This document shows positions 16,677 to 63,832 of a stretch of 64,000 nucleotides of DNA, one piece after another. The number at the start of each line of letters is the position of its first letter. Positions within the stretch are counted from its first letter, which is position 1. The translations under genes were made by a program, and so were the position numbers. The stretch is from Eledone cirrhosa (lineage: Eukaryota): the NCBI GenBank assembly GCA_964016885.1, contig OZ024743.1, positions 158,348,001 through 158,412,000 on the forward strand. Reading direction: 5' to 3'. The notes under the pieces are model-generated. The model was not told the DNA's origin and did no database searches. It saw only the letters and a list, made by a program, of their open reading frames with translations.

Positions 16677-16727
16677 TGCCTGAAGAGGTCACAGCCAAAG
16701 ATGGCTGTCACTGAAATATATATAGCA
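16677..16727 (+). ncRNA. Minimal type-I hammerhead ribozyme (Penelope-type)
   Basis: tgc|CTGAAGA|g gtcacagcca aaga tggctgtcac t|GAAA|tatat ATA|gca; palindromic stem III; AATAAA downstream. Confidence 0.75.
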
Positions 16728-16799
16728 CTGAAATATATATAGCAAATAAACGAAGCTAAATTTTAAACATTTGACTTTTTATTTAACTTTATTTTATTT

Positions 16800-16845
<46 letters not shown>

Positions 16846-16852
16846 ACATACA

Positions 16853-17299
16853 TTAGCTGCCGAGATGCTGAAGGCATCTGGGTCTGTAGGTCACACTATA
16901 ACCACACGTATTGTTAACCAGGTAATACTAGAAGGTGTCATACCAAAAGATTGGTGCAGTAGCATCATTGTCAACTGCTACAAAGGTAAAGGTGATGCAC
17001 TCGATAGAGGAAACTATAGAGGTATAAAGCTGATGGACCAGGTCATGAAAGTAACAAAAAGAGTTATAGCACAGTTGATTAGGGACTGGGTGAAAATAGA
17101 TGAGATGCAATTTGGGTTTGTACCAGGAAGAGGCACCACTGATGCCCTCTTCCTTGTGAGGCAGTTACAGGAAAAGTACCTAGCTAAAAGTAAGCCACTC
17201 AACCTGGCATTCGTCGATCTCGAGAAAGCCTTTGACAGAGTTCCACGTGCTGTAATCTGGTGGGCTCTTAGAAAACTAGGAGTAGATGAATGGCTTGTG
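16853..17299 (+). mobile_element. RTE RT internal fragment, open frame
   Basis: NYRGIKL, QFGFVPGRGTTDA, FVDLEKAFDRVPR. Confidence 0.9.
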
Positions 17300-17677
17300 G
17301 GAGATTATTGCATATAAAAGTTTACATATATATATACATACACATACATATATACATACATACATATATACATATATATGTATGTATGTTCACATGCATA
17401 TACATATATATGTATATATAAATATATATATAAAGACACAGAAGCGAAAACCAACCAAACAGTGAGTGTGTTCTGTTATTAATTCTGGCAATATTATTAC
17501 ACAAATATGACCCTCCCCAAGTATAACAATATGTATATATATACATTATTGCATATAAAAGTTTACATATATATATACATACACATACATATATACATAC
17601 ATACATACATACATATATATGTATGTATGTTCCCATGCATATACATATGTATGTATATGTATATATAAATATATATA

Positions 17678-20330
17678 TCATCATCATCATTGTTTTTACA
17701 CCTGTTTATCCAAGCTTGCATGGGTTGGGCAGGTCCTTCTCGGCATGCTATTTCTCCACACATTATGATCATTTGTCATCGCATCTGTGATTCACAGTGA
17801 TTTGAGGCCAGCTCTCACAACCTCTGCCCAGGTTTTTTGGGGTCTACCTCTACAGTGGCTTCCTTCCACTGACATTTCCTGGCACTTCTTCACCCAACAA
17901 TCATTGTCCATGCACATCACATGTCCAAACCAACACAATCTTCTCTTCTGTACACCATCTCAGATTTCTCTTAAACCCAGCTCCTCCCTCAACTCATCCA
18001 AGCTCTGACTTTCTCTCACACATACATTGCACATCCAACAGAGCATGGCTGCTTCATTTCTCTCCTGTCTACTTCCTCTGTAGCTTCAGTCCATGTTTCA
18101 CTACCATGCAGCAATGTAGCATTGTACTTCGCACACAGACACCATGCAGTTATCCTTTTTTCCTCCTATCCTTATTCTAGTTGTTGTGCTCTCAGAGCAC
18201 TCTCCTTCATTTCTAATTATGTCACCTAGATAGCATAAGCTATCAACCACTTCCTGTAACTGAAATAGGTTTACATCATTGGCTATTTTCCTCTCAGTTC
18301 TGCTGTGCATCTTCAACAAACAAAATCTTCCCTTCCTGTTAGTCTACCCATTATCCCACTACATCGCTTGTGTACCAAAGATTTACATTGTGTACATCGT
18401 ATTGAGTTTATGCCTACTCCCTTTCTACATATTGAGCAGGGCCACTTCCCCGAAGGAATCTGGATCCTATCTTCTCTCCTACTCACTAAAACTTAAGTTT
18501 TGGCTAAGTTTACTCTCGGGCCTTTTGATTCTAAATTCTGTTTCCATAGTCAGAATTTATTTTCTAGTTCTTTAATGAATTTGGCTATAAGGACCAGATC
18601 ATCTGCATGGAGAAGTTCCCATGGGCAGCCCATTTTAAACTCCTCTGTTATGGTCAGAAGAACTATAATGAATAGTTGTGGGTTAAGAACTGAACTTTGA
18701 TGAACTCCTACCTGTACCTTGAATTCCTCGCTAAACTCTTTTCCTTCTCTCACTTTGATGACAGCTCCTCTGTACATAGCTTGCACTACTCTTACCAACC
18801 ATTCTTCTACACCTAATTTTCTTAGGGACCACCAGATTATAGAGTGGGGTGCACTGCCTAATGCTTTTTCTAGGTCAACGAAAGCTAGGTATAGTGGCTT
18901 ATTTTTGGCTAAGAACTTCTCTTGTAGTTGCCTCACTAAAAAGAAGGTGCCTGTAGTATTTATCCAGGCATGAGACCAAACTGCATTTCATCTAATCTGA
19001 CTCTTTCTCTAATCAACACTTTCCATCACTTTCATAACTTGATCCATTAGTTTTATTCCTCTATAGTTGCTCCAATGGCTGGCCCTTCTGTTTGACAAGT
19101 TAGGGGTAGTTTTTTTTCCCCTCCCATTCATTCTCTACATTTATCAGTCTCTCATAGTAACATTTCCAAGCCTCTTTCTTTTGAACATTAATGGTTCTAA
19201 ATACACCGGTGTCATTTCTAACACACTTTTCCCCAACAATATACCAATTTACACTGACACACTACCTTGCAATGCAGAACACTTTGTGTCTCTGATCCTC
19301 ATGTCTCAGAACATTGGCAAACTTTCTTTCTTAAGCCTCTCTCTGAGTTGTGTATACTTTTTACCTAGCTTCCCTCTTAGCCACTGGTACTGGTCTCTGC
19401 TACCCCCATTTTTCAAGCCTGTTTCCACTGAACTGTTCCACCACCAGGTCTCCCTCAGACTGACTGGTGTTCTACTCCAGCCACAAATCTCGTCAGTAGT
19501 TTGCAAAAGATTGTCACATAAGAATTTACAGTTGTCCCCTACATCATAGATGTCTACCTTGTCAATTCTCTAATCAAATGCATCCTGTAGGGCCTTTCTA
19601 AACTTATATTTAACCAAGAGGTCTTTTAGCTTCCAGATCCTCCATCTCCATATTTTTCTGCATGTCTTTTTCTGCCTCATGCTTATTTTGATGTCACTAA
19701 TAACAAACTTGTACTGAGCAGTGCATTCATCCACAGGGAAGGCCTTAGTATTTATTACAGTTAGTTTGTCTAGTTGTTTAACAAATAAATAATCAATTTG
19801 GCTTTTGTGTTTGCCAGATTGATATGAGATCAGGTGGCTAGCAGATTTCCTGAAATTTGTGTTGCAAATGGTTAGTTCATTTGAATCACAGAATTCTAGG
19901 AGTCTCAATCTCTCTTCATTTCTTGAGCCATAACCATAGCCACCGTGAATTCGTCCTGGTACTGTCCCGCATGTCCATTGAAGTCACCCGTCAGGAAGAT
20001 GAGGTCACCTTTATCAGTACTTGAAGTTGTCTGTAAAAGTTCTTCATAAAATCTGTGTTTTTGTTCATTATTCAGTCCTACCTATGGGGCATAGGTAGAT
20101 GTAATTGTCAGCATTCTATTTCCTACTGCTAATCTAAGCGTGATAATTCTGTCACTTACTCTAACTACTTCTATCACTTTATCCATTTCTCAGCTTGTAA
20201 AACCCCTACACCTCCTACCCCATCATCATTTCCTATCCAGTAAAGTTTATATCCATGCTGTTTGCCTGTCAATCATCTTGCTGAGGCACCCCGCTATCTC
20301 ACCTTTTGTACACACAAATGTCCACTTCTC
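17678..20330 (-). mobile_element. Near full-length degenerate RTE LINE (APE + RT with PHD insert)
   Basis: LLEFCDSNELTICNT..SQIDY (APE), FVDLEKA, GVHQSSVLNP, HADDLVL; (CAT)n tail at 17678. Confidence 0.9.
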
Positions 20331-20489
20331 TCCTCTCTAGCAGTTCCACAATTTCACCCGATTTACCTTTCAGGGTGCCAACATTGAAGGTGTCAGTTGT
20401 TATTTCCTTTGGTAAAAGTTTTATATATCTGAAAGGGAAAAGGGTTATGCCATTGCTTAAACATGGTCAAGGGGTTCTCACACATATAG

Positions 20490-22710
20490 TGCTTGAATTT
20501 GAGCAGCGCATAGCAACCAACCCTGACAGTAAGGTGTTCTGGAAGTATGTTCACTCAAAGCAGAGGCCTCACTCTCCAGTTGGTCCTCTTTACAATCCCC
20601 ACACAAGCCAGGTTACTGACAACCCCAAGGAATGCACAGAACTCATTGCTGAATGCTATGCAGGCATTTCAATGTTGAAGACCAGAATGTACCATCTCCA
20701 CCACTTCTTACATCGGATTCTATTACAACTATGGAATTTACACCTGCAGTGTTACAACGTCACTTTAAAAATAAATCCAACCATGCCTCTCCTGGTCTTG
20801 ATGGTGTTATGTACCTGCTTCTCAAACATGGTTGGTACTTCCTTCTGCACCAGCTATCACGCTTCTTCCAATTCTGTCTGAACAACGGTGTTACTCCAAA
20901 ACAGTGGAAAACTGCCAGTGTCATTCCTCTGTTCAAAAAGAGTGACCACACATCACCATGAACTATCGTCCAGTCTTACTAGCTGCATTGCCAAACTGAT
21001 GGAATCCTGTGTCAGAGAAACACTTTGGAACTTCTGGAACTCTCAGTCTTATCCAGCCCTCGCAATTTGGATTTATCCCTAACTCTAGTTGCTGTGATCA
21101 ACTTATCGAGTTTCTTGAAGACATCACTCAGATCACTGATGGCGGCTCATGGGTGGATATTGTTTACCTTGACTTTGCTAAAGCTTTCAATTCTGTGCCA
21201 CACAAAAGATTTATGGCAAAACTCTCTGCAATGGGTGTGAAGGATGATCTTTTTAACTGGTTGAAATCCTTCATTCTCAGTCGAAGAGAGGTAGTCACAG
21301 TTCTAGGACAGCATTCCTCACCATATGAGATGTCATCTGATGTACCACAGGGATCTGTTCTTGGCCCATTTTTGTTTGTGGCATATATTAATGACATAGA
21401 TGCCAACTTAAAGAATACCACAGCACTGAAATATGCAAATGACATCAAGCTGTACCTTGAGATAAAAAGGACAGATCCTGAACACTACAGATCTGCAATC
21501 TGACCTGGACACAATGCAACAATGGATCACGGACTGGCAACTGAAGCTGGCTGTGGACAAGTGTACCACTATGCATTTTGGAAGTAAAAACCCACTGGCC
21601 ATATACTCCCTCCACAACACTAATATCAAGAAGTCTTCTTGTGAATGTGACCTGGGCATTACTGTCAGCAGCGATTTGTGTTGGACGAAACATGTCTCTA
21701 AAATTGTCAAGAAAGCCGAGGGTGTCTTAGCATCATTCAGCAAGACCTTTGTCAGCCGCTCTCCAGCTATCTATTTAAAGTTGTATATGGAGGCACATGG
21801 CTTAGTGTTTAGAGCATTGGCCTTACAATCGAAAGGTTGTGAGTTCAATACTCAGACCGGGTGATGTGTTGTTTCCTTGAGCAAGACACTTTATTTCACA
21901 TTGCTCCAGTTTACTCAGCTGTAGAAATGAGATAATAGGGACTCCAGTCCCTATCATTCCACTGTAAAGTGGTCGTGGAGGTGCCATGGCAAAAAAGCAC
22001 CCAGCACTCACTGTAAATGAGGTTGGTGTTAGGAAGGGCATCCAGCTGTAGAAATCAAGCCAGCATCAGTTCCCGTCCCACCCTTGCAAGCAGGGAAAAA
22101 GCGGACGTAAAATGAAATGATAGCTATGGTGCGGCCACACTTAGAATTTGCAACACCAGTCTGGAAACCCCTATCTTGCTCAGAACATTGACCTCCTGGA
22201 AACTGTTCAGAAACGTGCATCCAAGCGAATACACTCCATCAGGCATCTACCATACTCTGAACGCCTTGCTTCCCTGGGCATGGGTACATTGAAGCTCCAA
22301 CGTCTGGCAACTGACTTGGTAAACACCCACAAAATTATTAACCATCTTGCCAACAACAACCCGAGTACCTCTTTGACTTCCATGTGTCTAACACACATGG
22401 GCATCCCAACAAAGTCAGAAAACAGCACAGCTCCCATGACTTTCGGAAACATTTTTTCACGCTCAGAGTTGCTGAAGCATGGAACAAACTACCTGCATCA
22501 GTTATTAGCTGTCCTTTAAAACCTCCATGCTTCCTGAGATTCGCCAACACTACACCTAATATTCCCCCTCCATTCACATGCACACATGTATATCATGATT
22601 CATACACTATTCACTTCCCTGACATTTGTATATTATTCTATGTACTATACATGCACCTTTGATGAGTTGTAGTGCACCTGAACACTGTACACAATAATTT
22701 CATTATTATA
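20490..22710 (+). mobile_element. CR1-clade LINE, 5'-truncated, with SINE insertion
   Basis: YLDFAKAFNSVPH, VPQGSVLGP, YANDIKLY, VRPHLEFA, FFTLRVAEAWNKLP; ATT tail at ~22702. Confidence 0.9.
21789..22120 (+). mobile_element. tRNA-head SINE with RTE-derived 3' tail (family B)
   Basis: tggcttagtg A box, gagttcaatac B box, ccttgagcaagacactt body, RTE end cccttgcaagcagggaaaaagcggacgtaaaatga; interrupts CR1 between LY and AMVRPH codons. Confidence 0.85.
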
Positions 22711-24259: not shown

Positions 24260-25862
24260 ATAATAATGAAATAATAATAATGAAATTATTGTGTACAGTG
24301 CTCAGGAGCACTACAACTCATCAAAGGTGCATGTATAGTACATAGAATAATGTACAAATGTCAGGAAAATTAACAGTGTATGAGTCATGATATAATAATA
24401 ATAATAATAATAATAATGAAATATTGTGTACAGTGCCCAGGTGCACCACAACTCATCAAAAAGTGCATGTACAGTACATAGGGCAATGCACAAACATCAG
24501 GAAAATGAACAGTAAACGAGTCATGATACACACATGTGTGCATGTGTATGGAAGGGGTACACCAGGTGTAGTTTTGGCATATTTCGGGAAGCATGAGTGT
24601 CTTAAAAGATGCAGTGTCTCGGCAGCTAACAACTGACGCAGGCAGTTTGTTCCATGCTTCAGCAACTATAAGCGTGAAAAAATGTTTCCGAAAGTCATGG
24701 GAACTGTGCTGTTTTCTGATTTTGTAGGCATGTCCACGTGTGTTAAACACATGGAGATCAAAAAGGTGCTCAGGGTTGTTGTTGGCGAGATGGTTAATAA
24801 CTTTGTGGGTATTTACCAAGTCTATTGCCAGATGTCTGAGCTTCAATGAATCCATGCCCAGGAAAGCAAGGCGTTCAGAGTATGGTAGGTGTCTGATTGA
24901 GGTTATGCAGTTGGCTGCACGTCTCTGAACAGTTTCCAGGAGGTCAATGTTCTGAGCAAGATAGGGGTTCCAGACTGATGATGCGAATTCCAAGTGTGGT
25001 CGCACCATAGCTGTATACAGTTTTAAATAGATGGCTGGAGAGCGGCTAACAAAGGTCTTGCTGAGTGATGCCAAGACACCCTCGGCCTTCTTGACAATCT
25101 TAGAGATATGCTTTGTCCAACGCAAATCGCTGCTGACAGTAATGCCCAGGTCACATTCACAAGAGGACTTCTTGATATCAGTGTTATGGAAGGAGTATGT
25201 GGACGCTGGATTTTTCCTCCCAAAATGCATGGTGGTACACTTGTCCACAGCCAGCTTCAGTTGCCAGTCTGTGATCCATTGCTGCATTGTGTCCAGGTCT
25301 GATTGTAAGAAAGAGTTGTAAATTTCAGGATCAGTCCTTTTGATTTCAAGGTACAGCTTGATGTCATCTGCATATTTCAGTACCGTGGCATTCTGTAAGT
25401 TGACATCTATGTCATTAATATATGCCACAAACAAAAGGGGACCAAGAACAGATCCCTGTGGTACACCAAATGACATCTCATATGGTGAAGAATGCTGTCC
25501 TAGAACCGTGACTACTTCTTTTCGGCTGAGAATGAAGGATTTCAACCAGTCGAAAAGATCATCCCTCACACCCATTGCAGAGAGTTTTGCCATAAGTCTT
25601 TTGTGTGGCACAGAATTAAAAGCATTAGCAAAGTCAAGGTAAACAATATCCACCCATGAGCCGCTGTCAGTGATCCGGGTGATGTCTTCAAGGAACTCGA
25701 TAAGCTGATCACAGCAGCTGGAGTTAGGGATAAATACAAACTGTGAGGGCCGGATGAGGCTGTGAGAGCTCCAGAAGTTCCAAAGTGTTTCTCTGACACA
25801 GGATTCCATCAGTTTGGCCATACAGCTAGTAAGACTGACTGGACGATAGTTGACAGGTGACA
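24260..25862 (-). mobile_element. Young CR1 LINE with uninterrupted RT frame, plus extra 3' end copy at 24260-24390
   Basis: 512-aa ORF with NYRPVSLTS, GVPQGSVLGPLLF, YADDIKLY; (ATT)n tail; ORF start lies in flanking microsatellite, so 5'-truncated. Confidence 0.95.
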
Positions 25863-25921
25863 TGCGGTTGCCCTTTATGTTACACACAGATGTATGTATA
25901 TATATATATATATATATACAC

Positions 25922-27155
25922 ACTTAAAATTAACCTGGCTAAGACTAAAGTTCTAGTTTGTAGGAAAGAAAATAAAGCGGCGGTCCCTTCTGGGAAATGG
26001 TCATGCTCGGTGTGTAGGAAAGGCGTAGGTAGAAACTCCATTTTATGTCCTAAATGCAAAGTATGGATGCATAAAAGATGTAGTGGGATCACAGGTAAGC
26101 TAACTAAGAACATAGATTTTACATGTGGCCAGTGCTCTGGTGCAATAAGTAGCAGCAAGTGCCCACAAAATACTAGCTCTTTCAATTGCGCAGAGGGTTC
26201 TATAGAAATAGTGGACAGCTTCCATTACCTGGGTGATAAAATCAACAGTGGGGGAGGGTGCTCTGAAAGTACAGTAGCTAGAGTCAGAACTGGTTGGAAA
26301 AAGTTCAGAGAGCTTATACCACTATTAGCTGCTAAAGGGTTCTCCCTAAAAATGAAAGGCAGGTTGTACGATGCCTGCATACGAACAGCAATGTTGCATG
26401 GCAGTGAGACCTGGGCATTGTGTGCAGAGGATATACGCTGGATGTGTAACAGTAATATACGTGAACGGCAAAGCATAAACGAACTAAGGAAAAAATTAGA
26501 AATAAGAGGGATCAGATGTTGTTTACTCAAGAGAAGGCTACGTTGGTATGGACACGTGATGCGCATGAAAGTCGATAGCTGTATAACAAAGTGCAGGGCA
26601 ATAAAGATAGACGGTAGCCACGGAATAGGCAGACCTAGAAAAACCTGGGACGAGCTGATAAACTCCGACCTCACACACTTACACCTCTCCAAAACAATGT
26701 CACTGGACCGAGACCTTTGGCGGTACTCAGTAACAGAGAAGACCCGCCTTACCTAAATACATAGTAAAACCTACTACAGCCAGTAGGCATCTCTAACAAA
26801 ATACCCCCCCGTCCCACCACCACCACCCCCACCCCATCCACACCACCCCGTTCTATGTAAAGTTATGTTGGTGCCACACCATCCAGGCCGAAACAAATGA
26901 GATCGTGTAGGTGTCACGACAAAAAAAACACACAGTCCACGCTGTAATGTGGCCGTGTAGGCAACACGGTAAAAACCTCCCAGACCCACACTGTAAATGT
27001 GGTTGGTGTTAGGAAGGGCATCCAACTGTAGAAAACCTGCCAGACAGTCCTATGCGAGCAAGACAATCACTCTTGCCTCAAGTGGGACTACCCCCGTCCA
27101 AACCCATGCAAGCGTGGAACACGGACGTTAAACGTTGATGATGATGATGATGATG
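25922..27155 (+). mobile_element. Young RTE LINE 3' half (PHD + RT C-terminus + 3' UTR + (GAT)n tail)
   Basis: CSVC..CPKC..HKRC..CGQC, FHYLGD, LHGSETW, RLRWYGHVMR, GRPRKTW. Confidence 0.95.
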
Positions 27156-27372
27156 ACACACACAGTTATATGTATATCACCATCATCATCAATATATATG
27201 TATATGTCTATATATATATGTATATATATATATATATAATAGGTATAAATTGAAATTGTAGCCACAGTTTAGCAGATTTTACAAAACTATTCTGATTTCC
27301 TGTGATTATATATGCCATATGGGTAAAATAAAATACTTGATAGAGAGGGAAAATATGAGATCGCCATAACTA

Positions 27373-33859: not shown

Positions 33860-33987
33860 ATTATTGCAATGAACCAGGCAGTTCATCACAACAATAACAC
33901 CAAATTGTAGGCTATCTTCAAATGAAGTCTATTCTCTGTTTATGTTTGCTACAATTCTGTAATTGATTACCTAATCTTTGCAATTTA

Positions 33988-34059
33988 CACCTGATGATGT
34001 AATCAAAGTCTTACATCATGATTTGATGATGTAACCAGGTCATAGAAATACGTATTGTG
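33988..34059 (+). ncRNA. Hammerhead motif with extended stem II
   Basis: cac|CTGATGA|..ttacatcat..atgatgtaa..|GAAA|tacgt ATT|gtg; palindromic AATACGTATT. Confidence 0.55.
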
Positions 34060-34289
34060 ATATTGTGATTTTACAACATTAAAAGAATATTTGGAATATG
34101 GTCTTATGTTGTATTTTAAATATTTAACTCCATTTTTGCACCAGCTACCTGATAGTACATCTACGACGGTTGATTTGCATAACATTGAGTGTTTTATCCT
34201 ATTACATCAAGGTTTGCTAACCTGAATGACTAGATCTACCCATTAGTTAAGCCATCCAATATAAATGGTATATATATATATATGTGTGT

Positions 34290-37267: not shown

Positions 37268-39900
37268 TAATGGAAATTATTGTGCACTACATCTCATCAA
37301 AGGTGCATGTATAGTACATAGAATAATGTAAAAAGGTTAGGAAAGTGAACAATGTATGAGTCATGATACACACACACTCACTCACACACACACATGCTTG
37401 CTTGCGTGTGTATGGAGGAAGAATATTAGGTGTAGTGATGGTGAATTTCAAGAAGCACTGAAGTTTTGAAGGCTGCAGTGTCCTGACAGCTAACAACTGA
37501 TACAAGTAGTTTGTTCCATGCTTCAGCAACTCTGAGCATGAAAAAATGTTTCTGAAAGTCATGGGAGCTGTACTGCTTTCTGATTTTGTAAGCATGTCCA
37601 TGGGTGTTAGACATGGAATTCCAAAAGGTGCTCAGGGTTGTTGTTGGAAAGATGCTTAATAATCTTGTGGGTGACTACCAAGTCAGTTGCCAGATGTTGG
37701 AACAAGGTGTTTGGTGTATGGTAGATGCCTGGGTGGGAGGTATTTGCTTAGCTGCAGGCCTCTAAACAGTTTTCAGGAGATGAATATTCTGAGCAAGATA
37801 GGAGTTCCAGACTGCTGATGCAAATTCTAAGTGTGGATGCACCAAAGCTATATACAGCATTAAATAGATAGCTGGAGAGCTGTTGATAAAGGTCTTACTG
37901 AATGATGCAAAGACACCCTTGGTCTTCTTGACAATTTTAGAGATGTGCTTTATCCAATGCAAATGACTGTTGACAATAATGCCCAGGTCACGTTCACAAG
38001 AAGTCTTCTTGAGAGTGGTGTTGTAGACGGTGTATGTGAAAGCTGAGTTTTTCCTCCCAAAATTCATGGTGGTGCACTTTTCCACAGCTAGCTTGAGTTG
38101 CCCGTCTGTAATCCATTGCTGCAGTGTGTCCAGGTCTGATTCAGGAAAGATCTATAGCATACAGGATCTGTACTTTTCATCTCAAGGTACAGCTTGACAT
38201 CATCTGCATATTTCAGCACTGTGGCATTCTTCAAGTTGGCATATATGTCATTAATATATACAACAAACAAAAGGGAACCAAGAACAGATCCCTGTAGTAC
38301 ACCAGATGTTATCTCATATGGTGAAGAATGCTGTCCAAGAACCGGGACTACCTCTTTTCGACTGAGAATGAAGGACTTCAACCAGTTATAAAGATCATCT
38401 CTCACACTCATTGCAGAGAGTTTGCCATAAAGTCTTTTGTGTGTCACAGAATTAAAAGCTTTAGCAAAGTCAAGATAAATAACATTGAGCCATGAGCTAC
38501 CATCAGTGATTTTGGGTAATGTCTGCAAGAGACTCGATGAGTTGACCACAGCAGCTGGAGTTAGGGATAAATCCAAACTGCAAGGGCCAGATAAGGCTAT
38601 GAGAGTTCCAAAAGTTCTAGAATGTCTCTTTGATACAGGACTCCATCAGTTTAGTGATGCACCTAGTAAGAGTGACTGGACGATAATTGACAGGCGATGT
38701 GCGATCACCCTTTTTTAAATAGAGGAATGACACTGGCAGTTTTCCACTGCTCTGGGGTAACACCGTTGTTAAGGCAAAATTGGAAGAAGAGTGAAAGCTA
38801 GTGTGGAAGAAAGTACCCACCACGTTTGAGAAGCAGGTATGTAACACCATCAAGACCAGGAGAGGCATAGTTGCACTTATTCCTAAGGTGGTGTTGCAGC
38901 ATTACCAGTGTAAATTCCACAGTTGCTATGGAATTTGATGTCAGAAGTGCCTGACATCAAAAATGCCTGCATAGCATTCAGCCAATAAGTTCTGCATATT
39001 CTTTCGGATCATCAGTAATCCAGCCTGAATGGGGATTGTGAAGAGGACCAACTGCAGAGTGAGGTCTCTGCTTTGAATGTACATATTTCAAGAACACTTT
39101 GCTGCCAGGGTTGGTTGCTATATGCTGATCATTTTCAAATACTGCCTTTTTTGCCATCAGCTTGAGATGGTTAGATGATCTATTGTGCTTTTTCTATTAA
39201 TCTCTGATCTATGTAGTCTGTATTCCAGTTCAGTATCACAACGTTCTTTCCTGGCAAGTCGGACTGCTGCAATCTCCCAGCTTGCACTTTTGGGATGTTT
39301 TTTGTGCTTACATGGTACTGATGCTGCACATGCTGTCCATATTGAATTCAGAATGTTCTGAAGTGTAGTATTCACATCTCCAGAGTCGTAAAATTCAAGC
39401 CAGTTTAGGTGCTGTAGCTCAGTGGTGTAAGAATTCCAGATCCAAAGTATTGTTGGGGAGGTGGCTACTTGAGACCAGTTTGGATCCAGAGTGATTAAAG
39501 TCACCTGCAATGAAGGCATAAGTAGCTGTTTTCCTAGCAGCAACTCTGAGGATCTCAAAAAGCTGTGTGTATTGATGGTAATGGGGGGGGGGGCAACCCC
39601 AAGTAGAAGTGTTGACATGGTCTTACGTATATCGCAGGAAAATACTTCTTGTGATTGGTTCAAATCATTGCAAAGAATTGCTGAAAAGTTTGAATGAATG
39701 ATGACCATCACACCACCACCACCATAATTAATGCAGTCTTTGTGAAACAAGTTGTAACCAGCTATGCTAAAAACACTATCACAGAGTAAAGAATGCACCC
39801 ATGTTTCTGTGACTGCAATGAAATCAGGGTTGATACTTTTGACGTAATAATCAAAAAGATGGATCTTGTTGCCTAAACTACAAGCATTTAAGGACAATAA
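37268..39900 (-). mobile_element. CR1 LINE, near-complete ORF2, degenerate
   Basis: SLNACSL..IAVTETW..GGGV (APE), YLDFAKAF, QGSVLG, YADDVKLY, same 3' UTR as other CR1 copies. Confidence 0.9.
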
Positions 39901-43705: not shown

Positions 43706-45004
43706 ATGAGAAACTTTGAAAATGTGAATGGTTTTTAAGAAGAATCTGTAAACTTTAAAATATAATTGATGTAAAATGCTGGTATATGAATAAAATTTAA
43801 AAACATTTATAAGTGAATAAATGAAAGGAATTATGTAGCTAAGTTTAAAAAGCACATAGAAGAGAAGAAAATAATCTAACTGATGATATTTAAGCTTAAC
43901 AGATAAAAATAAAGAGAGAATCAATATATAAAAAAAAAGAGAAATTATAATGAAAATTGGTTTGGAAGATCCATTCTAATTTGAGCTGTTTCTTCATCTG
44001 TTGTTTTTTATGTTTTTGCTCTTTATGTTTTTTTTTCTTTCTTTTTGTGTTTTTCTTTTCCTTCCTGCCATTAGTCCCAGCAAATTTACTAATAGTTCAT
44101 TAAAACCTCAACAACAAAAGAGCAAATCGGTGGTGGTAATTTAATCTTTTGTTTTAAACTATATTTGCAATCATTTTCCAAAACATATATGGAAATTCAT
44201 TGTCCCACAAATACAGCTATTGGTTAAAAATGCAGAAATCAATAGACTATATATACTAGATATGTTGTTGTTGTTGTCTTCTTCATTGATTTACTCACAA
44301 AATTCCTCTCCTAATCCTCTTTTTCACAAATTGCCTATTTCCCCTCACTTCCTTGACTTTTTATATCTCTTTCCACCAACAATTTTATCATTATCATCAT
44401 CATATCTTTGAACATAATAGTTTCTATGTCCTCATCATGATCATCATCCTCATTATCTTCATCACTATGATCATCATCATCATTATTCTCACCTCCAGCA
44501 ACACCATTGTTATTTCCATCACTATCACCTCTGCCATCTTTCTGGTCCTTACCACTATGTCAATGCCAATGATGCCATTATAATCATCCTTACTACTGCC
44601 ATTAATTCTGGTACCCCCTCTACCACTACCATAATTGTGGAGACCATCATCTTCATCATCATCTAATCAATGCATCAATTACCACCATGGTCAGGTCACT
44701 TCCATAATGACCGATCACTATCCATATCTGTAATGTTATATATCATCAGTTGCAGAACCATGCACACCATTTATTCTATGTTCCAATGTTCCATTGGTCA
44801 AATCTTTTAATGATAATATCTATTTAGTAATATCACTGTGTAAGTTAGCAGCCAACTTCATTTAATGTTAGCCAGTAAGTTATCATCATCTAATGCTGCC
44901 CTACATTGTAACATCACTGTGTATGTTGGGATTGAGTTCAGTTTAATTCTTTTATTGCTGTATTTCAATTAATTTTGAAAATAGCCAAATATTTGGAGAT
45001 TTTC

Positions 45005-52611: not shown

Positions 52612-52735
52612 TTTCAAATCCCGTCGAGGTTAACTTTGCCTTTCATCCTTACGGGGTCGATAAAATAAAGTACCAGTAATGCACTGGGTAATTGCCAAAA
52701 AGTAGAAACTTGTGCCAAAAAGTAGAAACAGTTAT
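52612..52735 (+). mobile_element. SINE family A, truncated
   Basis: Core match; duplicated tgccaaaaagtagaaac end. Confidence 0.85.
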
Positions 52736-52744
52736 TAGACGTAC

Positions 52745-52794
52745 ATATTCTCTGATGAGAACTCCAATTAAGGTCGAAAATTGTTTAAGAATAT
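52745..52794 (+). ncRNA. Minimal hammerhead ribozyme
   Basis: atattct|CTGATGA|gaact..aggtc|GAAA|attgt TTA|agaatat; 7-bp stem I. Confidence 0.75.
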
Positions 52795-52904
52795 TCATAA
52801 CTTACAGGGAAATACATAAATTTGACATGTTTACACAATTTGCCTAACTCATACAAGTATGGAAAATAGACATGAAATGGTAATGATGATAATGACAATA
52901 TTAA

Positions 52905-53124: not shown

Positions 53125-53411
53125 TTAAATTGCGCACTAAGCAGCCAAAGTATATGATCAATTTTTATTTGTACATATACAGCACAGAGTTTAACTGAGA
53201 CTGCATAAATCTGTATATAAATATATAAACATATGTAGACATGTAAACATCAAATTTACATAATTCCCTGTAGATTGAAAGAATTATGAATATTCTTAAT
53301 TGACTTTAAACCCTATTTAGGGTCTCCATCGGGGTATATGTACATCAAAATAATCATAAGGAAATAGGTAACTGAAAGGCTTGTAAATGTAATCATGAAA
53401 ATTAATAATTA

Positions 53412-53827: not shown

Positions 53828-54731
53828 TAATTTTCATATTTTTAGTACCTACATTAGTGATTAATTTCAATATATATTAAATTGTGCACTAAGCAGCTGA
53901 AGTATATGTTAGATTTATACCTGTGCATATACAGTAAAGAGTTTAACTGAGACTTTTTAAGGTTTAGAAAGCGATATGCTACAGGGTGCATCAGTGTACA
54001 GGGTGCTTTTTATCATAAAATCAACATTGCCTTGTCAAGGCTAAAGAATCCTCTTTATTCTACATAGCCTCTGCTCCTTCAAGGCAAGCTTGAGCAAGAG
54101 TGTAGTTGGGGGTGGGGAATGAGAGTGATTACCAAGTGGCTGAAAGAGGAGAGAATATGGTTATGAGTATGAAGGGAGAAAACAGAGTGATAAGATGATA
54201 GGAGAGGTAGAGGGACAGTAGTAATTGCATGTTGGGTTTTGGCAGTGAATAGGAGATTGAGAAGAAAATAGCATAAGGACTGTAACTGAATAACAATAGG
54301 GATGTGTTAAGGTAGGAGAGAGGGATGGATAGCAACAAAGAAGGACGGTGGTGAGTATGTCAATTAAGAGCCTCATAGGGGAGAGAGATTAATGGTTAGC
54401 AGTTGAGGATGTTGCTATTGGATATAGACACAAGCGATAGATATTAACATATATGTGCATGTGGTATATGTTAACTAAGAATATCATGAAACAGGTAAAA
54501 GTGTAAAAGTGTAAAATATATATATATATTGTTATACTTGGGGAGGGTTATATTGTTGTAATAATATTGCCAGAAATAATAACAGAACACATTCACTGTT
54601 TGGTTGGTTTTCGCTTCTGTATCTTTTATATCTCCACAGTTAATTCATTTGTTTATCATTTGTTTATCATTGACTGACCAATGGTCAAAAATACAGATAT
54701 AATATAGATATAAACACATATATATATAGTC

Positions 54732-54775
54732 TAACAAAGTTCTTTCGTTGCACATCTGCAACATCATCAGTGGTA
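54732..54775 (-). ncRNA. Minimal hammerhead ribozyme
   Basis: Minus: tacca|CTGATGA|t gttgca gatg tgcaac|GAAA|gaa CTT|tgtta. Confidence 0.75.
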
Positions 54776-55094
54776 CTATTATGTCCCTCCTGTTGTATTG
54801 TATGTCTACGTCATTTTTATTTTATCTGCTTATTTATTTATTTATTTTTGTCTTCTTCTCTGTGCATGCGTTTGCGTGTATAGTGTTTCGTGTGTGTTCC
54901 CCAAATATAACAATAGTTGTTTCGACACACACTTTCATATCAAAAACCTCGCAAAACAAATATATATATATATATATATTAATAAAAGGAATTCCAACTT
55001 TGTCTGATTTACTCGTTTTATTTACAATCCTTTAAAATTTATAATGGTATTAGAATGAAATAGTATGGTAGAATATTAAATGTTAAGTGTTAAT

Positions 55095-55133
55095 TGAACA
55101 AGTACTTTCATGCTTTCACAATCTTCAGGTTCA
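55095..55133 (-). ncRNA. Mirror hammerhead in left arm of palindrome
   Basis: Exact reverse complement of 55207-55245. Confidence 0.7.
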
Positions 55134-55206
55134 TATTGTGTGGTGACAGTAAAGTTTGCAATTTTCAACTGTTGAAAATTGCAAACTTTACTGTCACCAC
55201 ACAATA

Positions 55207-55245
55207 TGAACCTGAAGATTGTGAAAGCATGAAAGTACTTGTTCA
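55207..55245 (+). ncRNA. Minimal hammerhead in right arm of palindrome
   Basis: tgaac|CTGAAGA|t tgt gaaa gca t|GAAA|gta CTT|gttca; palindromic AAGTACTT. Confidence 0.7.
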
Positions 55246-55406
55246 ATTAACACTTAACATTTAATATTCTACCATACTATTTCATTCTAATACCATTATA
55301 AATTTTAAAGGATTGTAAATAAAACGAGTAAATCAGACAAAGTTGGAATTCCTTTTATTAATATAATCTTCTATACACAATCATACACACCCGTGTATTC
55401 CTTTTA

Positions 55407-55442
<36 letters not shown>

Positions 55443-55552
55443 TATATATATAATTATATATATAAACAAAATTTATTTTTGCTCTAACATAGCAGATACA
55501 TAAATGCATTCATGAGTGAATAATAATAATATTGTAATAATATTATTAATAT

Positions 55553-55660
55553 ATCCCGCCGAGGTTAAGTTTGCCTTTCATCCTTACGGGGTCGATAAAA
55601 TAAAGTACCAGTAATGCACTGGGTAATTGCTGGCCTTGTGCCAAAAGTAGAAACAATTAT
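55553..55660 (+). mobile_element. SINE family A, truncated
   Basis: Core match. Confidence 0.85.
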
Positions 55661-55744
55661 TAATATTCGATTTGTTTGCAAGCAAACAGCCTCTCAATGC
55701 CAAGTGTTCTAGACAACTAACGTCATCCTTTTCTAAAACATACA

Positions 55745-55788
55745 GTGACTGATGAAGGGTAATCACCCAGAAACATTAGTGTCTGCAG
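55745..55788 (+). ncRNA. Hammerhead-like motif, weak stem I
   Basis: CTGATGA|a gggt aatc accc a|GAAA|cattagt GTC. Confidence 0.6.
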
Positions 55789-55938
55789 TTCTGTTTGCAT
55801 GCCAACACAAGAGCAAGAATGAGGGACTCATTCTACTACATGGCTTTAAAGAGGCTGTTTGCATAATTGCAAACAAATTAAATATTATTATTGATATAAA
55901 CTCAGATTACATTTATATATATATACATATATATATAT

Positions 55939-56088
55939 ATAGGAAAATGTTTAACCCCGACAGCAGAGCTCAAGCCTTTTCGACGGCTATTTCTGGACTA
56001 AATTAGAATTTAGAAAAATTCTAATTTAGTCCAGAAATAGCCGTCGAAACAGCTTGAACTCTGCCGTCGGGGTTAAACATTTTCCTAT
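55939..56088. repeat. Fold-back palindrome, 73-bp arms, 4-nt loop
   Basis: ataggaaaatgtttaaccccgac.. / ..gtcggggttaaacattttcctat, few mismatches, abuts (TA)n. Confidence 0.95.
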
Positions 56089-56196
56089 TACCCACGTATT
56101 CCTACTACCCTAAGTATTGAGTACTCTGCTGTGTTATGGTCCGTCTGGTCCCTTACCACACCTCCTTCGTTTTATATATATATATATATATATATA

Positions 56197-56768
56197 TCAT
56201 CATCATCATCATCATCACCGTTTAACGTCCATGTTCCACGCTTATATCATCATCATCATCATCATCAACGTTTAACGTCCGTGTTCCACGCTTGCATGGG
56301 TTTGGACGGGGGTAGTCCCACTTGAGGCAAGAGTGATTGTCTTGCTCGCATAGGACTGTCTGGCAGGTTTTCTACAGTTGGATGCCCTTCCTAACACCAA
56401 CCACATTTACAGTGTGGGTCTGGGAGGTTTTTACCGTGTTGCCTACACGGCCACATTACAGCGTGGACTGTGTGTTTTTTTGTCGTGACACCTACACGAT
56501 CTCATTTGTTTCGGCCCGGATGGCGCGGCACCAACATAACTTTACATAGGACGGGGTGGTGTGGATGGGGTGGGGGTGGTGGTGGTGGGACGGGGTGTAT
56601 TTTGTTAGAGATGCCTACTGGCAAGGCGGGTCTTCTCTGTTACTGAGTACCGCCAAAGGTCTCGGTCCAGTGACATTGTCTTGGAGAGGTGTAAGTGTGT
56701 GAGGTCGGAGTTTATCAGCTCGTCCCAGGTTTTTCTAGGTCTGCCTATTCCGTGGCTACCGTCTATCT
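56197..56768 (-). mobile_element. Young RTE 3' end, near-identical to 26603-27155
   Basis: Direct alignment by eye; extra terminal copy at 56197-56243; (TA)n on both sides. Confidence 0.95.
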
Positions 56769-57021: not shown

Positions 57022-57068
<47 letters not shown>

Positions 57069-57071
57069 ACA

Positions 57072-57180
57072 TACTCTGATGTGTTGACCATAGGTGAATA
57101 ATGTATTGGAGATCAAATAACGCAACATCAAACGATTAGCGAACTCTAGACCCACATGATCAACGAAACAATTGTCAGTA
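57072..57180 (+). ncRNA. Hammerhead motif with ~80-nt stem II and variant core
   Basis: tact|CTGATGT|gttgaccat..atgatcaac|GAAA|caatt GTC|agta, then AATAAA; palindromic CAATTG. Confidence 0.65.
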
Positions 57181-57256
57181 CTTTAAATAAAGCCCTTATT
57201 GTACAGCCAACCATGTTAATCTTCATTCTTTAACTATATATATATATACACACACA

Positions 57257-59437: not shown

Positions 59438-59509
59438 AGTTTGGAACATAAGAAACAAGACCATTTGAGTGAGCAAGAGAAACAGAATGAGATTATAGAG
59501 AATCTGAAG
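59438..59509 (+). CDS. Internal exon, probably same gene (SLEHKKQDHLSEQEKQNEIIENLK)
   Basis: Pyrimidine-rich tract + tttcAG acceptor, AAG|GTAAGA donor, 72 nt phase 0/0; joins in frame to the 32962 exon as continuous coiled coil. Confidence 0.75.
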
Positions 59510-60923
59510 GTAAGACACATTTTTTGTATATAATAAACAGGAAAAATATGTGAATCTCTTCATTACACTACACTCTGGATAGGATGCTATTCTATTGTGG
59601 TTGATTTTTCTCTCTGCGGATTTGTTATTGCTATTGTTGATTAGCCCCCAGTTAGCTATAGTCAAACGGATCTATGAGGAAAGGCATTCAAGTCAAGACA
59701 CCATCCCATCTTATTTTCAAAGACCATACATCTAGGACTGTATAATCCAGTATTTTATTCCTTTATTAAAGGTAGGGTATAACTTAAAGACAATTTTGCA
59801 TGGTTGCTATTTCTAGCAGATTAAGTAACCATCGTGTATTGCCTACCATCAATATTCTGAGGTTAATTTAATCAAAACTTCACCTTGTTACCTTCAGACA
59901 TCAACTATGTGTTTTGTCTAAAGAAAGAAATATATTTAATGGCATGTTTCTTGTTGCTGTTGTTATTGCTGCTAGTGTCCTTGTTATATTTCTTATTTGA
60001 TTAGGGCTTATTCAATTGAGGGACATCCCTGAAAATATGAGATGCCTCCAAGCTTCCTTTTATTTGGTTTTCTAGTTTCTTCCCTGTGTACAAAAATAAT
60101 TTGACTACTGAATTAGCCAATGGGAAAAAATATGTAGCTGAAAAAATTTGAGGTACTTACTCTCAGATCACAAATAAAAGGGTGGGGTGGAATAAGCGGG
60201 GGATCAGTATTTTTCTAGGTTGTGTCCCTTGATGTTTTTAAAAACAAGATTTAGTCGTTTAGTTTACATTTTGAGACCCACAACCCATCCTATTTATTTT
60301 ATATGGGATTTCTTGTAATGTTTTTTTTTGTCATGTATAATGTTTTTTAATGTCTAAAAATAATTAATGGATGATTATTTGAGACCCGAGAGTTGTTAAA
60401 AAATGTCAAGAAAGAAATTTCAGGATATCAAGATAAAACAAATAATATACAGATAAATAAAAGCAAAGCCAGACAGATATGTTTCATGGTGAATATATTC
60501 TTAAGGTACAAGACACACTGAATATATTCTTAAGGTACAAGACACGCCTTTTTTTTTTCAAGTGCATGCTTAACAAATATTTAAAAGAGCCAAATAGAAC
60601 AATATATAACTTGGCAAGTGAAATATGATAACCATAGAAAATATCTGAATGAAAATATAAGTAATACTGAAAGATAATACTGAAAGATAATACTGAAAGA
60701 ACACACTTTTCACCTGAAGATCGCAGTGGTGTCAAATTTGTGAGAAAAAGAATTCAGTTTAAATAAACAATACATCAAGTATTGAGTACACCTTTCCTCT
60801 TTTATTGACAAACAATACTACATACATAAACACACACACATATAAGCTTGAAACTAATAAGACTTTGTATTTTTGCATCTCTGTGTTTAGTTTGTCTATT
60901 CTTGAACTATATATAAAAATATA

Positions 60924-61149: not shown

Positions 61150-61181
<32 letters not shown>

Positions 61182-61463
61182 CAAAAATATATGTTGAGTA
61201 AAAACTCACAATAGTCCCTTATAATCAAATTAGCTCAAGGAAAAAATGTTCAGAGCCTTATAACACAGTAAAGAGAGACAAATACAGATATATATATATG
61301 TGTGTGTGTGTTCATATACAAGGGACAGAAACAACCAGGGTGAAGAAATACTGACTAAAGATGTACAGTTCACAGAACTCAAATAAAATGAAAAATCAAG
61401 ATATACAAACCTACTATGGCGGTTTGAATCCCCTGTGATATGAACACATATATATAAATATAT

Positions 61464-61656
61464 ATATTTATTAAAATAACAGATTAAAGTTTAAGCAAAG
61501 AATCGTTGCTTTCACCCTGTTTTCCTTCGGTTGCAATGTTTTTCAAAATATTTACTTCTGCGTTCACAGATTGATTTTTTTAGTTTCAGAAGATCCCTTT
61601 AAGGGTGAAAACAGCGTTTTTTTGCTTAAACTTTAATCTGTTATTTTAATAAATAT
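61464..61656. repeat. Inverted repeat (~55-bp arms) containing degenerate hammerhead at 61587-61620
   Basis: atatttattaaaataacagattaaagtttaagcaaa / tttgcttaaactttaatctgttattttaataaatat; CAGAAGA t ccct tta aggg t GAAA. Confidence 0.85.
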
Positions 61657-61742
61657 TTGCTCTAGGGCTCTTACATATTTCATATATATTTATCCTTATC
61701 GAGCCCTCTTTGGATTTTAGTCTTCGAATTTATTATTATTAC

Positions 61743-61793
<51 letters not shown>

Positions 61794-61849
61794 AGAAGAA
61801 GAAGAAGAAGAAGAAGAAGAAGAAGAAGAAGAAGAAGAAGAAGAAGAAG

Positions 61850-61878
<29 letters not shown>
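61743..61878. repeat. Compound (TA)n(GA)n(GAA)n microsatellite
   Basis: Direct inspection. Confidence 0.95.
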
Positions 61879-61880
<2 letters not shown>

Positions 61881-61911
61881 CCCAACTGTGGTTGAAAGGA
61901 GTTTTGGCTTA

Positions 61912-63312
61912 TGAGAGAAAACCTTTGATAGAGTACCCCGATCTGTCATCTGGTGGTCCCTAAGGAAGCTAAGTGTAGAGGAATGGCTTGTGAGGACAGT
62001 GCAAGCCATGTACAGAGGTTCTGTCAGTAAAGTGAGAGAATGAATGGAGTTTAGGGAAAAATTCCAGATACATGTAGAAGTTCATCAGGTTCTGTCCTCA
62101 GCCCACTCTTATTCATTATAGTTCTCCAAGCCTTAACAGGGGATTTTAAGACTGGCTGCCCATGGGAACTTATGTATACTAATAGCAGAATCAGTAGAGG
62201 AACTAGAGAAGAAATTCTGGCTGTGGAAACATCAGTTGGAATCAAGGGGACTGAGAGTGAATCTAGCAAAGACTAAAGAATTGATAAGTAGGAAAGTGGA
62301 CAAGACTCTGATTCCATCAGGGAAATGACCATGCTCGATATATAGAAAAGGAGTTGGCATAAACTCTATAGAATGTACACAATGTAGATCTTGGGTACAC
62401 AAGAGTTGTAGTGGGATAGCAGGCAAACCTAACAGGAAAAGAAAACTTCCTATGTAGTAGATGTTCAGGGAAAATTGATAGTAGAGGTGTCAGTGATAGC
62501 TTCTGATATCTAGGTGATCAAGGTGATCAAGGTAGCAAGGGAGGAGGATGCTCCGAGGCCATATTATTTAGAATAATTGTTTCTACTTTAGGCACAAGGC
62601 CAGCAATTACCCAGTGCATTACTGGTACTTTATTTTATCGACCCCGTAAGGATGAAAGGCAAAGTCAACCTCGGCGGGATTTGAACTCAGATCGTAAAGG
62701 GACGTAACTATGCTGGAAAGCATGGCGTCCGACCCTCTACCGATACTGCCAATCCACCGCCCTTTATTTAGAATAATGACAGAATGGAAGAAGTTTAGGG
62801 AGCTGCTTCGTCTGTTGACAATGACAGATTTCTCCCTATGAACAAAAGGTCGGTTGTATGATGCGTGTGAGATGTACAATGCTGCATGGTAGTGAGACAT
62901 GGGCAGTAACTGCAGATGATATGCAATGGCTGGAGAGAAATGAAGCAAGTATGCTATGATGGATGTGCAGTGTCAATGTGTGGGAATGACCAAGCATGGA
63001 CCAGTTGAGAGTGAAACTGTGTATAAGAGGAATAAATTGTAGCGTGCAGGAGAGAAGACTGCATTGGTATGGCCAAGTGATGTGCATAGAAGATGCCCAC
63101 TGGGTGACGAAGTGTCAAGAAATCCCGGTGGAATTAAGACACAGTAGAGGAAGACCACAAAAAACATGGGTGGAGGGGGTGAGAGCAGGCCTCCAATTGC
63201 TGAAGTTCACAGAGGAGATGACAAAGGGCTGTGACGAATGGAGAGATGCTGTGCTGAAGCGGATTTGTCCCACCCTAGCAAACAAGGAAAAGCAGACATA
63301 AAATGATGATGA
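61912..63312 (+). mobile_element. RTE LINE fragment, degenerate, SINE-interrupted
   Basis: Homologous to 57800-59000. Confidence 0.9.
62578..62763 (-). mobile_element. SINE family A, full length
   Basis: 14-bp TSD ttatttagaataat (62564-62577, 62764-62777). Confidence 0.95.
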
Positions 63313-63563
63313 TATATATATATTATGTGTGTGTGTGTGTATATATATTATATATATATATATATATATACACATATGTATGTATTATGTATGTATGTAT
63401 GTATATATGTATATATGCATGTATGTATGAAATGTATGTAGGTATGTATGAATGTATGTATAAATGTGTGTGTACATGTGTGTATATATATATATACATA
63501 TATGTATCGTTCTTTCACGAGATGCTAGCTGATGCTGCAACTTCGATTTTACTCCCATTATTG

Positions 63564-63621
<58 letters not shown>

Positions 63622-63832
63622 GTGAAGTTTTTTACAAAATGAAAAAAAAACGAGGTGTCCTACACAAGTGAAAGTATAAGGAAAAAAGATGAAATCGAAA
63701 ATTCAACTGGAGTCTTTTTTTTTTTAAATATATATTTATTTGGTTCCTTTACCAGTTTCGCAGTTCTGCTTTTCAAAAGTAGAATTGAGATGGGGGGTTT
63801 GTGGATTTTCTCACATCTGTGTCATACACAAG

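What the first reader, a model, noticed from the sequence alone, without database searches (positions are those of the whole stretch)
16677..63780. About 11 distinct minimal hammerheads in one putative gene, with different stem III sequences
Seen: motifs at 16677(+), 33988(+), 52745(+), 54732(-), 55095(-), 55207(+), 55745(+), 57072(+), degenerate 60714(+), 61587(+), 63745(-). Flanks look unrelated and stem III differs (TATATA, TACGTA, GTAC, CAATTG, CATTAGTG, CTGG). Known: minimal PLE hammerheads are thought to cleave efficiently as dimers via palindromic stem III. Inference: many independent non-autonomous ribozyme retroelement families, with stem III acting as a family-specific dimerisation code that would leave lone intronic copies harmless. 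No PLE ORF is recognisable here.
Basis: partly seen in the sequence, partly recalled or inferred. Interest (0 to 1): 0.75.

Follow-up and report, generated by a model that had tools for sequence, protein, structure and literature searches.

The report
Hammerhead tails of Penelope-like jumping genes
The eleven small hammerhead-shaped RNA motifs are real, but they are mostly damaged end-pieces of ten families of repeats, six of them protein-coding Penelope-like jumping genes, at a density ordinary for this genome; their palindromes would let two copies pair, a known design, and are not unique enough to be a family code.

Summary
All 11 motifs lie at the stated places and each belongs to a dispersed repeat family. 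They are 10 insertions, because two are the arms of one 391-nt palindrome, and 8 of 11 carry lesions. Six of the 10 families are 3' pseudo-LTRs of Penelope-like elements (PLEs) with reverse transcriptase and GIY-YIG endonuclease: three Hydra-type and three with a CX4CxxC linker. One is a 436-nt ORF-less tandem unit (retrozyme-like); three old families are unresolved. The cluster is not special: one core pattern occurs 198,827 times genome-wide (control 28,147), or 4.2 per 64 kb against 6 here. A single host gene is not established (one good candidate exon, no RNA data). Self-complementary stem III is real (10 of 12 families when not required) and published. It is not a family code: different families share TATATA, CTAG, CAATTG and GAAC, and two window families lack a palindrome. 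In a crude dimer model stem I excludes more cross-pairs than stem III. Earlier notes of this scan reached the same verdict on other DNA, including in this genome. Side results: short copies with a fixed start behind a pLTR promoter, and core variants U4A and A9U fixed in whole families.

The parts
16595..16796 (+). 5'-truncated 3' end of a Hydra-type PLE (family F16680); hammerhead 16677-16727, stem III ATATATAT, stem I cut to 3 bp by a 17-nt duplication
   Evidence: (L049: inverted pLTR, RT, EN, pLTR)
33868..34283 (+). 3' end of an old repeat family (72-80% identity, F33991); hammerhead 33988-34059, 47-nt stem II region, stem III ATACGTAT; >1.2 kb shared upstream in other copies, no ORF found
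52730..52836 (+). Old family F52752; hammerhead 52745-52794, 7-bp stem I, stem III decayed from ATCGAT; no ORF found
53214..53375 (-).
54526..54979 (-). 3' end of a PLE with CX4CxxC linker (F54770): 54526-54899 on the minus strand plus an oppositely oriented end and tail 54898-54979; hammerhead 54726-54781, stem III AGAACT (central mismatch), same as family majority
   Evidence: (L149)
54975..55398 (.). Two-armed insertion of PLE family F55212 in (TA)n: perfect 195-bp arms 54975-55169 and 55171-55365 plus a tail of about 35 nt; hammerheads 55095-55133(-) and 55207-55245(+), stem III AGTACT
55740..55941 (+). Fragment of a 436-nt ORF-less tandem unit (F55749, retrozyme-like); hammerhead 55743-55789, stem III ACATTAGTGT, 5' strand of stem I lost at a fold-back junction
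57056..57237 (+). 3' end of a Hydra-type PLE (F57075); hammerhead 57072-57180, core CTGATGT (A9U in 11 of 13 copies), 82-nt stem II region, stem III ACAATTGT
   Evidence: (L140, L142, L143)
60690..60813 (+). Old, low-copy family F60714; dead hammerhead (stem III, family CTCGAG, deleted here); no ORF found
61444..61760 (+). 3' end and tail of a Hydra-type PLE (F61590) with a short inverted copy 61444-61518; hammerhead 61582-61632, core CAGAAGA (U4A in 36 of 39 copies), stem III a 5-bp hairpin rather than a palindrome
63578..63819 (-). 3' end of a PLE with CX4CxxC linker (F63777); hammerhead 63745-63782, U3-A8 core TTGAAAA, family stem III ACCGGT
59438..59509 (+). Candidate host exon (72 nt, AG/GT, open frame, single copy in the genome); host gene not established

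Best explanation
The motifs are type I hammerheads left at the ends of ten independent repeat insertions, six of them 5'-truncated copies of protein-coding Penelope-like retrotransposons and one a piece of an ORF-less tandem derivative, and in their source elements they likely cut only weakly, as pairs or with protein help, while most copies here are likely inert. Shown: family membership, RT plus GIY-YIG ORFs upstream in long copies, inverted 5' copies, tails, insertion next to (TA)n, and the lesions. Inferred: each copy arose by endonuclease nicking of AT-rich DNA and reverse transcription that started in the tail and stopped early. The hammerhead lies close to the 3' end, so almost every truncated copy keeps it and loses the ORF; this is why no ORF is seen in the window. 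Inferred from published work: self-complementary stem III lets two copies of one family form a double hammerhead. Stem III differs between families because families diverge under the single constraint of self-complementarity; partner choice would depend on stems I and III together.
For: ORF linkage: F16680 L049, L047, L048 (GIY-YIG E=1.3e-4); F54770 8 of 11 non-window loci with PLE ORF hits and L149; F57075 L140, L142, L143, L147; F61590 21 of 29 endonuclease copies have the motif 340-1243 nt downstream on the same strand; F55212 5 of 5 extended loci (RVT_1 5.4e-6, GIY-YIG 5.2e-6); F63777 3 of 5 extended loci (RVT_1 2.6e-7). Variable 5' truncation with common 3' ends. F55749: same-strand motif pairs about 436 nt apart in 6 of 25 loci and no shared upstream ORF, also L138. 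Genome-wide excess 198,827 against 28,147. Stem III self-complementary in 10 of 12 families when not required, 135 hits against 1 in reversed sequence. Shared stem III across families. Published match: PMC4209133, PMC8557442, PMC11167929.
Against: No ORF was found for F33991, F52752 or F60714, so 3 of 10 families could be non-autonomous. Homodimers are favoured over heterodimers in 9 of 10 window families in my model, as a code would predict. Related families that keep stem I TTTAT/ATAAA have switched stem III between TATATA/TATGTA and TGCGCA. No cleavage or expression was measured. I did not build a tree to test whether families sharing a stem III are relatives.
Confidence: 0.88

Rival explanations
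1. Stem III is a selected, family-specific dimerisation code among many non-autonomous ribozyme retroelements, and it keeps lone intronic copies harmless.
For: Ten window families have ten different stem III sequences; homodimer best in 9 of 10; compensatory palindrome switch TATATA to TGCGCA in related families with the same stem I.
Against: 6 of 10 families are autonomous PLE ends. Stem III is shared by families with different stems I and II. F54770 (AGAACT) pairs better with F55212 than with itself in the model. F61590 has a monomer-type hairpin. 31 of 90 ordered hetero pairs pass stem III (>=2 bp) but only 6 of 90 pass stem I (>=3 bp). Two different palindromes cannot pair fully in any case, so some orthogonality comes free.
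Confidence: 0.05
2. The hammerheads are passengers: cleavage is not needed for transposition, the uncut RNA is the template, and the fold serves as a protein-binding or folding element, so cores can drift.
For: U4A is in 36 of 39 F61590 copies and A9U in 11 of 13 F57075 copies, in families with copies 93-98% alike. All insertions keep sequence on both sides of the cut site. In PMC11167929 catalytic mutants did not affect insertion in vitro. This is compatible with the best explanation on origin and differs only on function.
Against: Core, stem I and self-complementary stem III are kept across many unrelated families, including the compensated U3-A8 core, which points to selection on the catalytic fold.
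Confidence: 0.3
3. The motifs are chance matches in AT-rich repetitive DNA.
For: No Rfam match; the loosest descriptor gives 37 hits in shuffles.
Against: Strict descriptors give 4-5 against 0.1; 7-fold genome-wide excess over control; family majorities restore broken pairs.
Confidence: 0.01

Closest known systems
Minimal and small-palindromic-helix-III type I hammerheads in pLTRs of metazoan PLEs (Cervera and De la Pena 2014, PMC4209133; parts 1-2 of 4 read)
   Same: Thousands of heterogeneous motifs in consensus families, mostly single and from truncated PLEs; opposite-strand pairs 100-700 bp apart; palindromic stem III; unpaired base at the 5' end of stem II; U3-A8 core variant; proposed dimer action.
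   Different: These families are from another genome. U4A and A9U cores fixed in whole families, an 82-nt stem II region and a hairpin stem III in an animal PLE were not in the parts I read.
Hydra clade PLEs (Craig et al. 2021, PMC8557442; section 11 and passages read)
   Same: C-terminal GIY-YIG, CxCX5C linker, RW[K/R] and DKT motifs (L137), canonical hammerheads, insertion in (TA)n, inverted 5' copy and 30-40 bp tail: F16680, F57075, F61590.
   Different: The section speaks of a small number of families outside cnidarians; here three abundant families occur in one window. No tree was built.
C-terminal EN+ PLEs with CX2-5CxxC linker (Neptune and Nematis clades, as described in PMC8557442)
   Same: DKG, YxDD, CX4CxxC linker and GIY-YIG in F55212 and F63777; linker, YVDD and GIY-YIG in F54770.
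   Different: Clade not resolved by phylogeny here.
Metazoan non-LTR retrozymes (PMC7229834, passages read; Li, Clavereau and Pollet 2026, bioRxiv 10.64898/2026.07.22.740005, part 1 of 5 and passages read)
   Same: F55749: ORF-less tandem unit with one type I hammerhead per unit and PLE-like ends.
   Different: 436 nt, slightly above the 170-400 nt quoted; applies to 1 of 10 families only; circular RNA not tested.
Poseidon element PAc of Anolis (Frangieh et al. 2024, PMC11167929; parts 1-2 of 4 read)
   Same: Tail marks internal starts of reverse transcription at the pLTR-ORF junction (the F61590 tail runs into the ORF in L137); uncut RNA as template.
   Different: In vitro work on another clade; protein assistance of the ribozymes here is untested.

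Membership tests
Type I minimal hammerhead of PLEs | CUGANGA and GAAA-UH core in type I order | tested here: met
   Exact in 7 of 10 family majorities; U3-A8 in F63777, U4A in F61590, A9U in F57075
Type I minimal hammerhead of PLEs | Stems I and II pair | tested here: met
   Family representatives have 2-7 contiguous stem I pairs; window copy 55749 has lost stem I
Type I minimal hammerhead of PLEs | Short self-complementary stem III | tested here: met
   8 of 10 window families; not F54770 (AGAACT) or F61590 (hairpin); 10 of 12 sampled families
Type I minimal hammerhead of PLEs | Self-cleavage as a dimer | not testable with these tools
   Needs an assay
Type I minimal hammerhead of PLEs | Match to Rfam hammerhead models | tested here: not met
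   No match at E<=10
EN+ Penelope-like element | RT plus GIY-YIG ORF upstream of the terminal repeat | tested here: met
   6 of 10 families; not found for F33991, F52752, F60714, F55749
EN+ Penelope-like element | 5' truncation, inverted 5' copy, tail, (TA)n target | tested here: met
EN+ Penelope-like element | RT groups with PLE RTs in a phylogeny | not tested
   No reference PLE set on hand; one homologue search was blank
Hydra clade | CxCX5C linker before a C-terminal GIY-YIG | tested here: met
   L049, L140, L137, L183
Hydra clade | RWK and DKT motifs | tested here: inconclusive
   RWR in L137 and DKT read across a frameshift; N-termini of F16680 and F57075 not recovered
Non-LTR retrozyme (F55749) | ORF-less tandem units, one type I hammerhead each | tested here: met
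   about 436-nt spacing in 6 of 25 loci and L138
Non-LTR retrozyme (F55749) | Expressed as linear and circular RNA | not testable with these tools
   Needs RNA data of this organism
Family-specific stem III code (proposed) | Each family has its own stem III | tested here: not met
   TATATA, CTAG, CAATTG, GAAC each occur with different stems I and II
Family-specific stem III code (proposed) | Carriers are non-autonomous | tested here: not met
   6 of 10 have protein-coding parents

The most novel reading that the evidence does not exclude
Dozens of co-resident PLE families use stem I and stem III together as a selected pairing key: where related families keep the same stem I (TTTAT/ATAAA), stem III has switched by compensatory palindromic change (TATATA to TGCGCA) so that their RNAs do not cut one another or stray intronic copies in trans. 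This genome would then be a natural library of orthogonal dimeric ribozymes, including working U4A and A9U cores.
Probability: 0.07. Interest if true: 0.65.

Novelty: new member of a known kind. Interest (0 to 1): 0.2.

Why it matters
As found, it is annotation: PLE ends put hammerhead motifs about every 15-20 kb of this 3-Gb genome, so any long intron will hold several, and clusters like this need no special explanation. The family set is useful material for an open question, what PLE hammerheads do, because it offers matched homo- and heterodimer pairs, a monomer-type variant and two core variants fixed in whole families. If a selected pairing key were shown, it would be a new form of self/non-self discrimination among mobile elements.

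Tried and rejected
Rfam scan: no hammerhead family matched. RNA evidence: no RNA holder listed; the three runs are Logan contigs of one sample, of unrecorded kind, and laying them showed only high copy depth and G at 55118 in other copies. Host gene: splice-site scans of the window and its flanks gave one good candidate exon; Pfam blank; the protein database could not be searched with 24 aa, so the gene's identity is open. Homologue search with the F16680 endonuclease among longer proteins was blank. Walking upstream of F33991, F52752 and F60714 found no PLE ORF; old age may hide it. I first read F55212 and F63777 as non-autonomous because of their fixed 5' ends and rejected this after finding ORFs upstream. 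ORFs downstream of motifs in L136, L138 and L141 were judged separate insertions. Extra descriptor hits at 11398, 15511, 48385, 49805 and 3234 had no family support as hammerheads. Lunse et al. (title seen in a reference list) was not available, so whether it lists U4A, A9U or tests heterodimers is unknown. Paper searches listed no paper that proposes a stem III family code; one search listed none on these families. No supplements were read; supplementary files of PMC8557442 and PMC4209133 may list these families or variants.
Full report
Setting. The window is G000:C4:158348001-158412000 of a 3.0-Gb genome. It is 37% G+C, rich in microsatellites and broken LINE-type frames, and about half is masked by the repeats I fetched. 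I did not identify the organism; earlier notes call it octopus-type.

Observation. All eleven cores are present within a few bases of the given places. Descriptors with an exact core and stems recover 4-5 of them against 0.07-0.1 per shuffle (30 shuffles). A descriptor loose enough for all 11 gives 65 hits against 36.9 (20 shuffles), so the weak motifs rest on family evidence. Rfam gave no hammerhead match. Each motif was searched in G000. First-look candidate numbers, which are not copy numbers and include adjoining repeats, were 900, 1646, 284, 1505, 2019, 3097, 2270, 9, 2877 and 4022; only the best 40 were scored (9 of 9 for 60714). Alignments of these copies restore the pairs that are broken here. 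The motifs at 55128- and 55212+ are arms of one perfect 195-bp inverted repeat, so there are ten insertions. Eight of eleven copies carry lesions relative to their family; 54770 and 57076 match the majority; 33991 is an old copy.

Not a special cluster. The pattern CTGANGA-N10-26-GAAA-N4-TH matches 198,827 times in G000 against 28,147 for the reversed control; the six-base version gives 116,797 against 29,097 (the two sets overlap). That is 4.2 expected per 64 kb. By hand, a Poisson count of 6 or more has probability about 0.25. A single host gene is not shown: one good candidate exon on the plus strand (59438-59509, single copy) and a weaker one at 44075-44135. If a plus-strand gene spans the region, three of the eleven motifs would be antisense, and 55212 would sit in a 195-bp hairpin (-307 kcal/mol predicted) that would block the ribozyme fold.

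What the carriers are. Six families lead upstream into a reverse transcriptase and GIY-YIG endonuclease frame. F16680: L049 reads inverted end, RT, EN, end. F54770: 8 of 11 non-window loci have ORF hits and L149 has the same layout. F57075: L140, L142, L143, L147. F61590: the tail runs into a full, frameshifted ORF in L137, and 21 of 29 endonuclease copies have the motif 340-1243 nt downstream on the same strand. F55212: 5 of 5 extended long copies; these five were chosen for long shared upstream sequence. F63777: 3 of 5, chosen likewise. F16680, F57075 and F61590 have the CxCX5C linker of the Hydra clade; the other three have CX4CxxC (definitions from PMC8557442). No tree was built. F55749 is an ORF-less unit repeated at about 436 nt in 6 of 25 loci and in L138, with octamer-like ATGCAAAT motifs upstream of the hammerhead (the motif name is recalled). 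F33991 shares more than 1.2 kb upstream among old copies without a detectable ORF; F52752 and F60714 are old and short. 5' ends vary, 3' ends and tails are common, inverted 5' copies and (TA)n flanks are frequent. The window itself holds no PLE ORF remnant.

Stem III. With stem III left free, a descriptor finds 135 distinct hits in 1.37 Mb of fetched loci against 1 in reversed sequence, and 10 of 12 multi-locus families have a fully self-complementary stem III, G-U allowed. These loci are enriched for my query families. The palindrome is therefore real, as published (PMC4209133; review PMC6765202; PMC3088659 legend S8). It is not unique to a family: TATATA is the top form in 2 of 12 families with different stems I and II, and the first 100 listed matches show CTAG, GAAC, TATATA and CAATTG each with two or more different stem II sequences. 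Some of these may be relatives; I did not test that. F54770 has AGAACT in 12 of 19 copies and F61590 a hairpin in place of a palindrome. In a double hammerhead stem I should also form between the two RNAs (my inference from the geometry). In a crude model of ten family representatives, one a composite and one a decayed copy, the homodimer was the most stable pairing for 9 of 10; F54770 preferred F55212. Of 90 ordered hetero pairs, 31 kept at least 2 stem III pairs, 6 kept at least 3 stem I pairs, and 3 kept both. Orthogonality exists, but it follows from divergence and stem I does more of it. One result favours a modified code: related families with stem I TTTAT/ATAAA differ as TATATA/TATGTA against TGCGCA.

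Mechanism. Shown: what the pieces are and where they break. Inferred: PLE protein nicks AT-rich DNA, reverse transcription starts in the tail and stops early, and a second, inverted copy is often added; the hammerhead lies near the 3' end and so survives truncation. Dimer cleavage in tandem source transcripts is taken from the literature. PMC11167929 reports for another PLE that the ribozyme needs protein, that cleavage is not needed for insertion and that uncut RNA is the main template. That, the lesions and antisense orientation explain harmless lone copies without a code. Li et al. 2026 report 42-44% of Xenopus retrozyme copies in introns, with a normalised depletion.

Side results. F55212: of the first 30 of 195 copies matching a pattern at the short form's 5' end, 28 have no native sequence upstream, and 2 continue into CCAAT-, CCAAT- and TATA-like motifs, which lie in the parent's 3' region. 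The short form likely records a transcript from the pLTR promoter, copied uncut from the tail to its start. In 13 two-armed copies, of 40 examined, arms differ by 1.1% within and 2.7% between copies, with 18 variants shared by both arms and 22 not; this fits one source per insertion or conversion between arms. U4A (36 of 39) and A9U (11 of 13) are fixed in abundant families.

Earlier notes. No note lies near this window. Notes on other windows of this and other genomes reach the same verdict on the code or describe retrozyme arrays and fixed starts. They are unchecked AI notes. My reading was recorded before I saw them, and the tests above are my own.

Verdict. Real motifs, known kind, ordinary density; mostly ends of autonomous PLEs; no stem III code. 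Interest 0.2.

Noticed in passing
window 54975-55398; L152-L181, L246-L275, L331-L335: Family F55212 has a short form of about 250 nt with a fixed 5' end (28 of 30 copies) just behind CCAAT- and TATA-like motifs in the parent's pLTR; likely a pLTR-promoter transcript copied uncut. F63777 and F52752 also show clustered 5' ends.
   Followed up: partly
window 61582-61632 and 57072-57180: Core variants fixed in abundant autonomous families: U4A with a monomer-type hairpin stem III (F61590), and A9U with an 82-nt stem II region whose base covaries in older relatives (F57075).
   Followed up: partly
window 53214-53375 (-): A second, decayed F52752 hammerhead about 500 nt from the first, on the opposite strand.
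   Followed up: yes
window 59438-59509 (+); weaker 44075-44135 (+): Single-copy candidate exon with a charged, coiled-coil-like 24-aa frame; gene unidentified.
   Followed up: partly
window 54500-56200: Nested pile-up of several repeat insertions in (TA)n tracts: F54770 end, F55212 palindrome, a common short repeat (D8-D10), F55749 and another palindromic element.
   Followed up: partly
window 55939-56088: Imperfect 150-nt palindrome with a perfect core at 55980-56047; a repeat family with 62 local hits among fetched loci and a variable centre; no hammerhead core seen.
   Followed up: partly
window 26922-27156 and 56247-56481: Two inverted copies of a 235-nt stretch, 100% identical, 29 kb apart (I7), with a 150-nt 99% pair nearby (I21); a young repeat or an assembly feature.
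   Followed up: no
L095, L214, L156, L113 and others: A group of related families keeps stem I TTTAT/ATAAA while stem II varies widely and stem III switches between TATATA/TATGTA and TGCGCA.
   Followed up: partly
G000:C1:1239857-1244284: Two-armed tandem array of 311-nt units, each with a hammerhead (stem III CGCG), in the list.
   Followed up: no
window 24385-25923 (-), 21000-21864 (+), 37762-38645: Decayed LINE-type reverse transcriptase frames unrelated to the hammerheads (class recalled, not tested).
   Followed up: no
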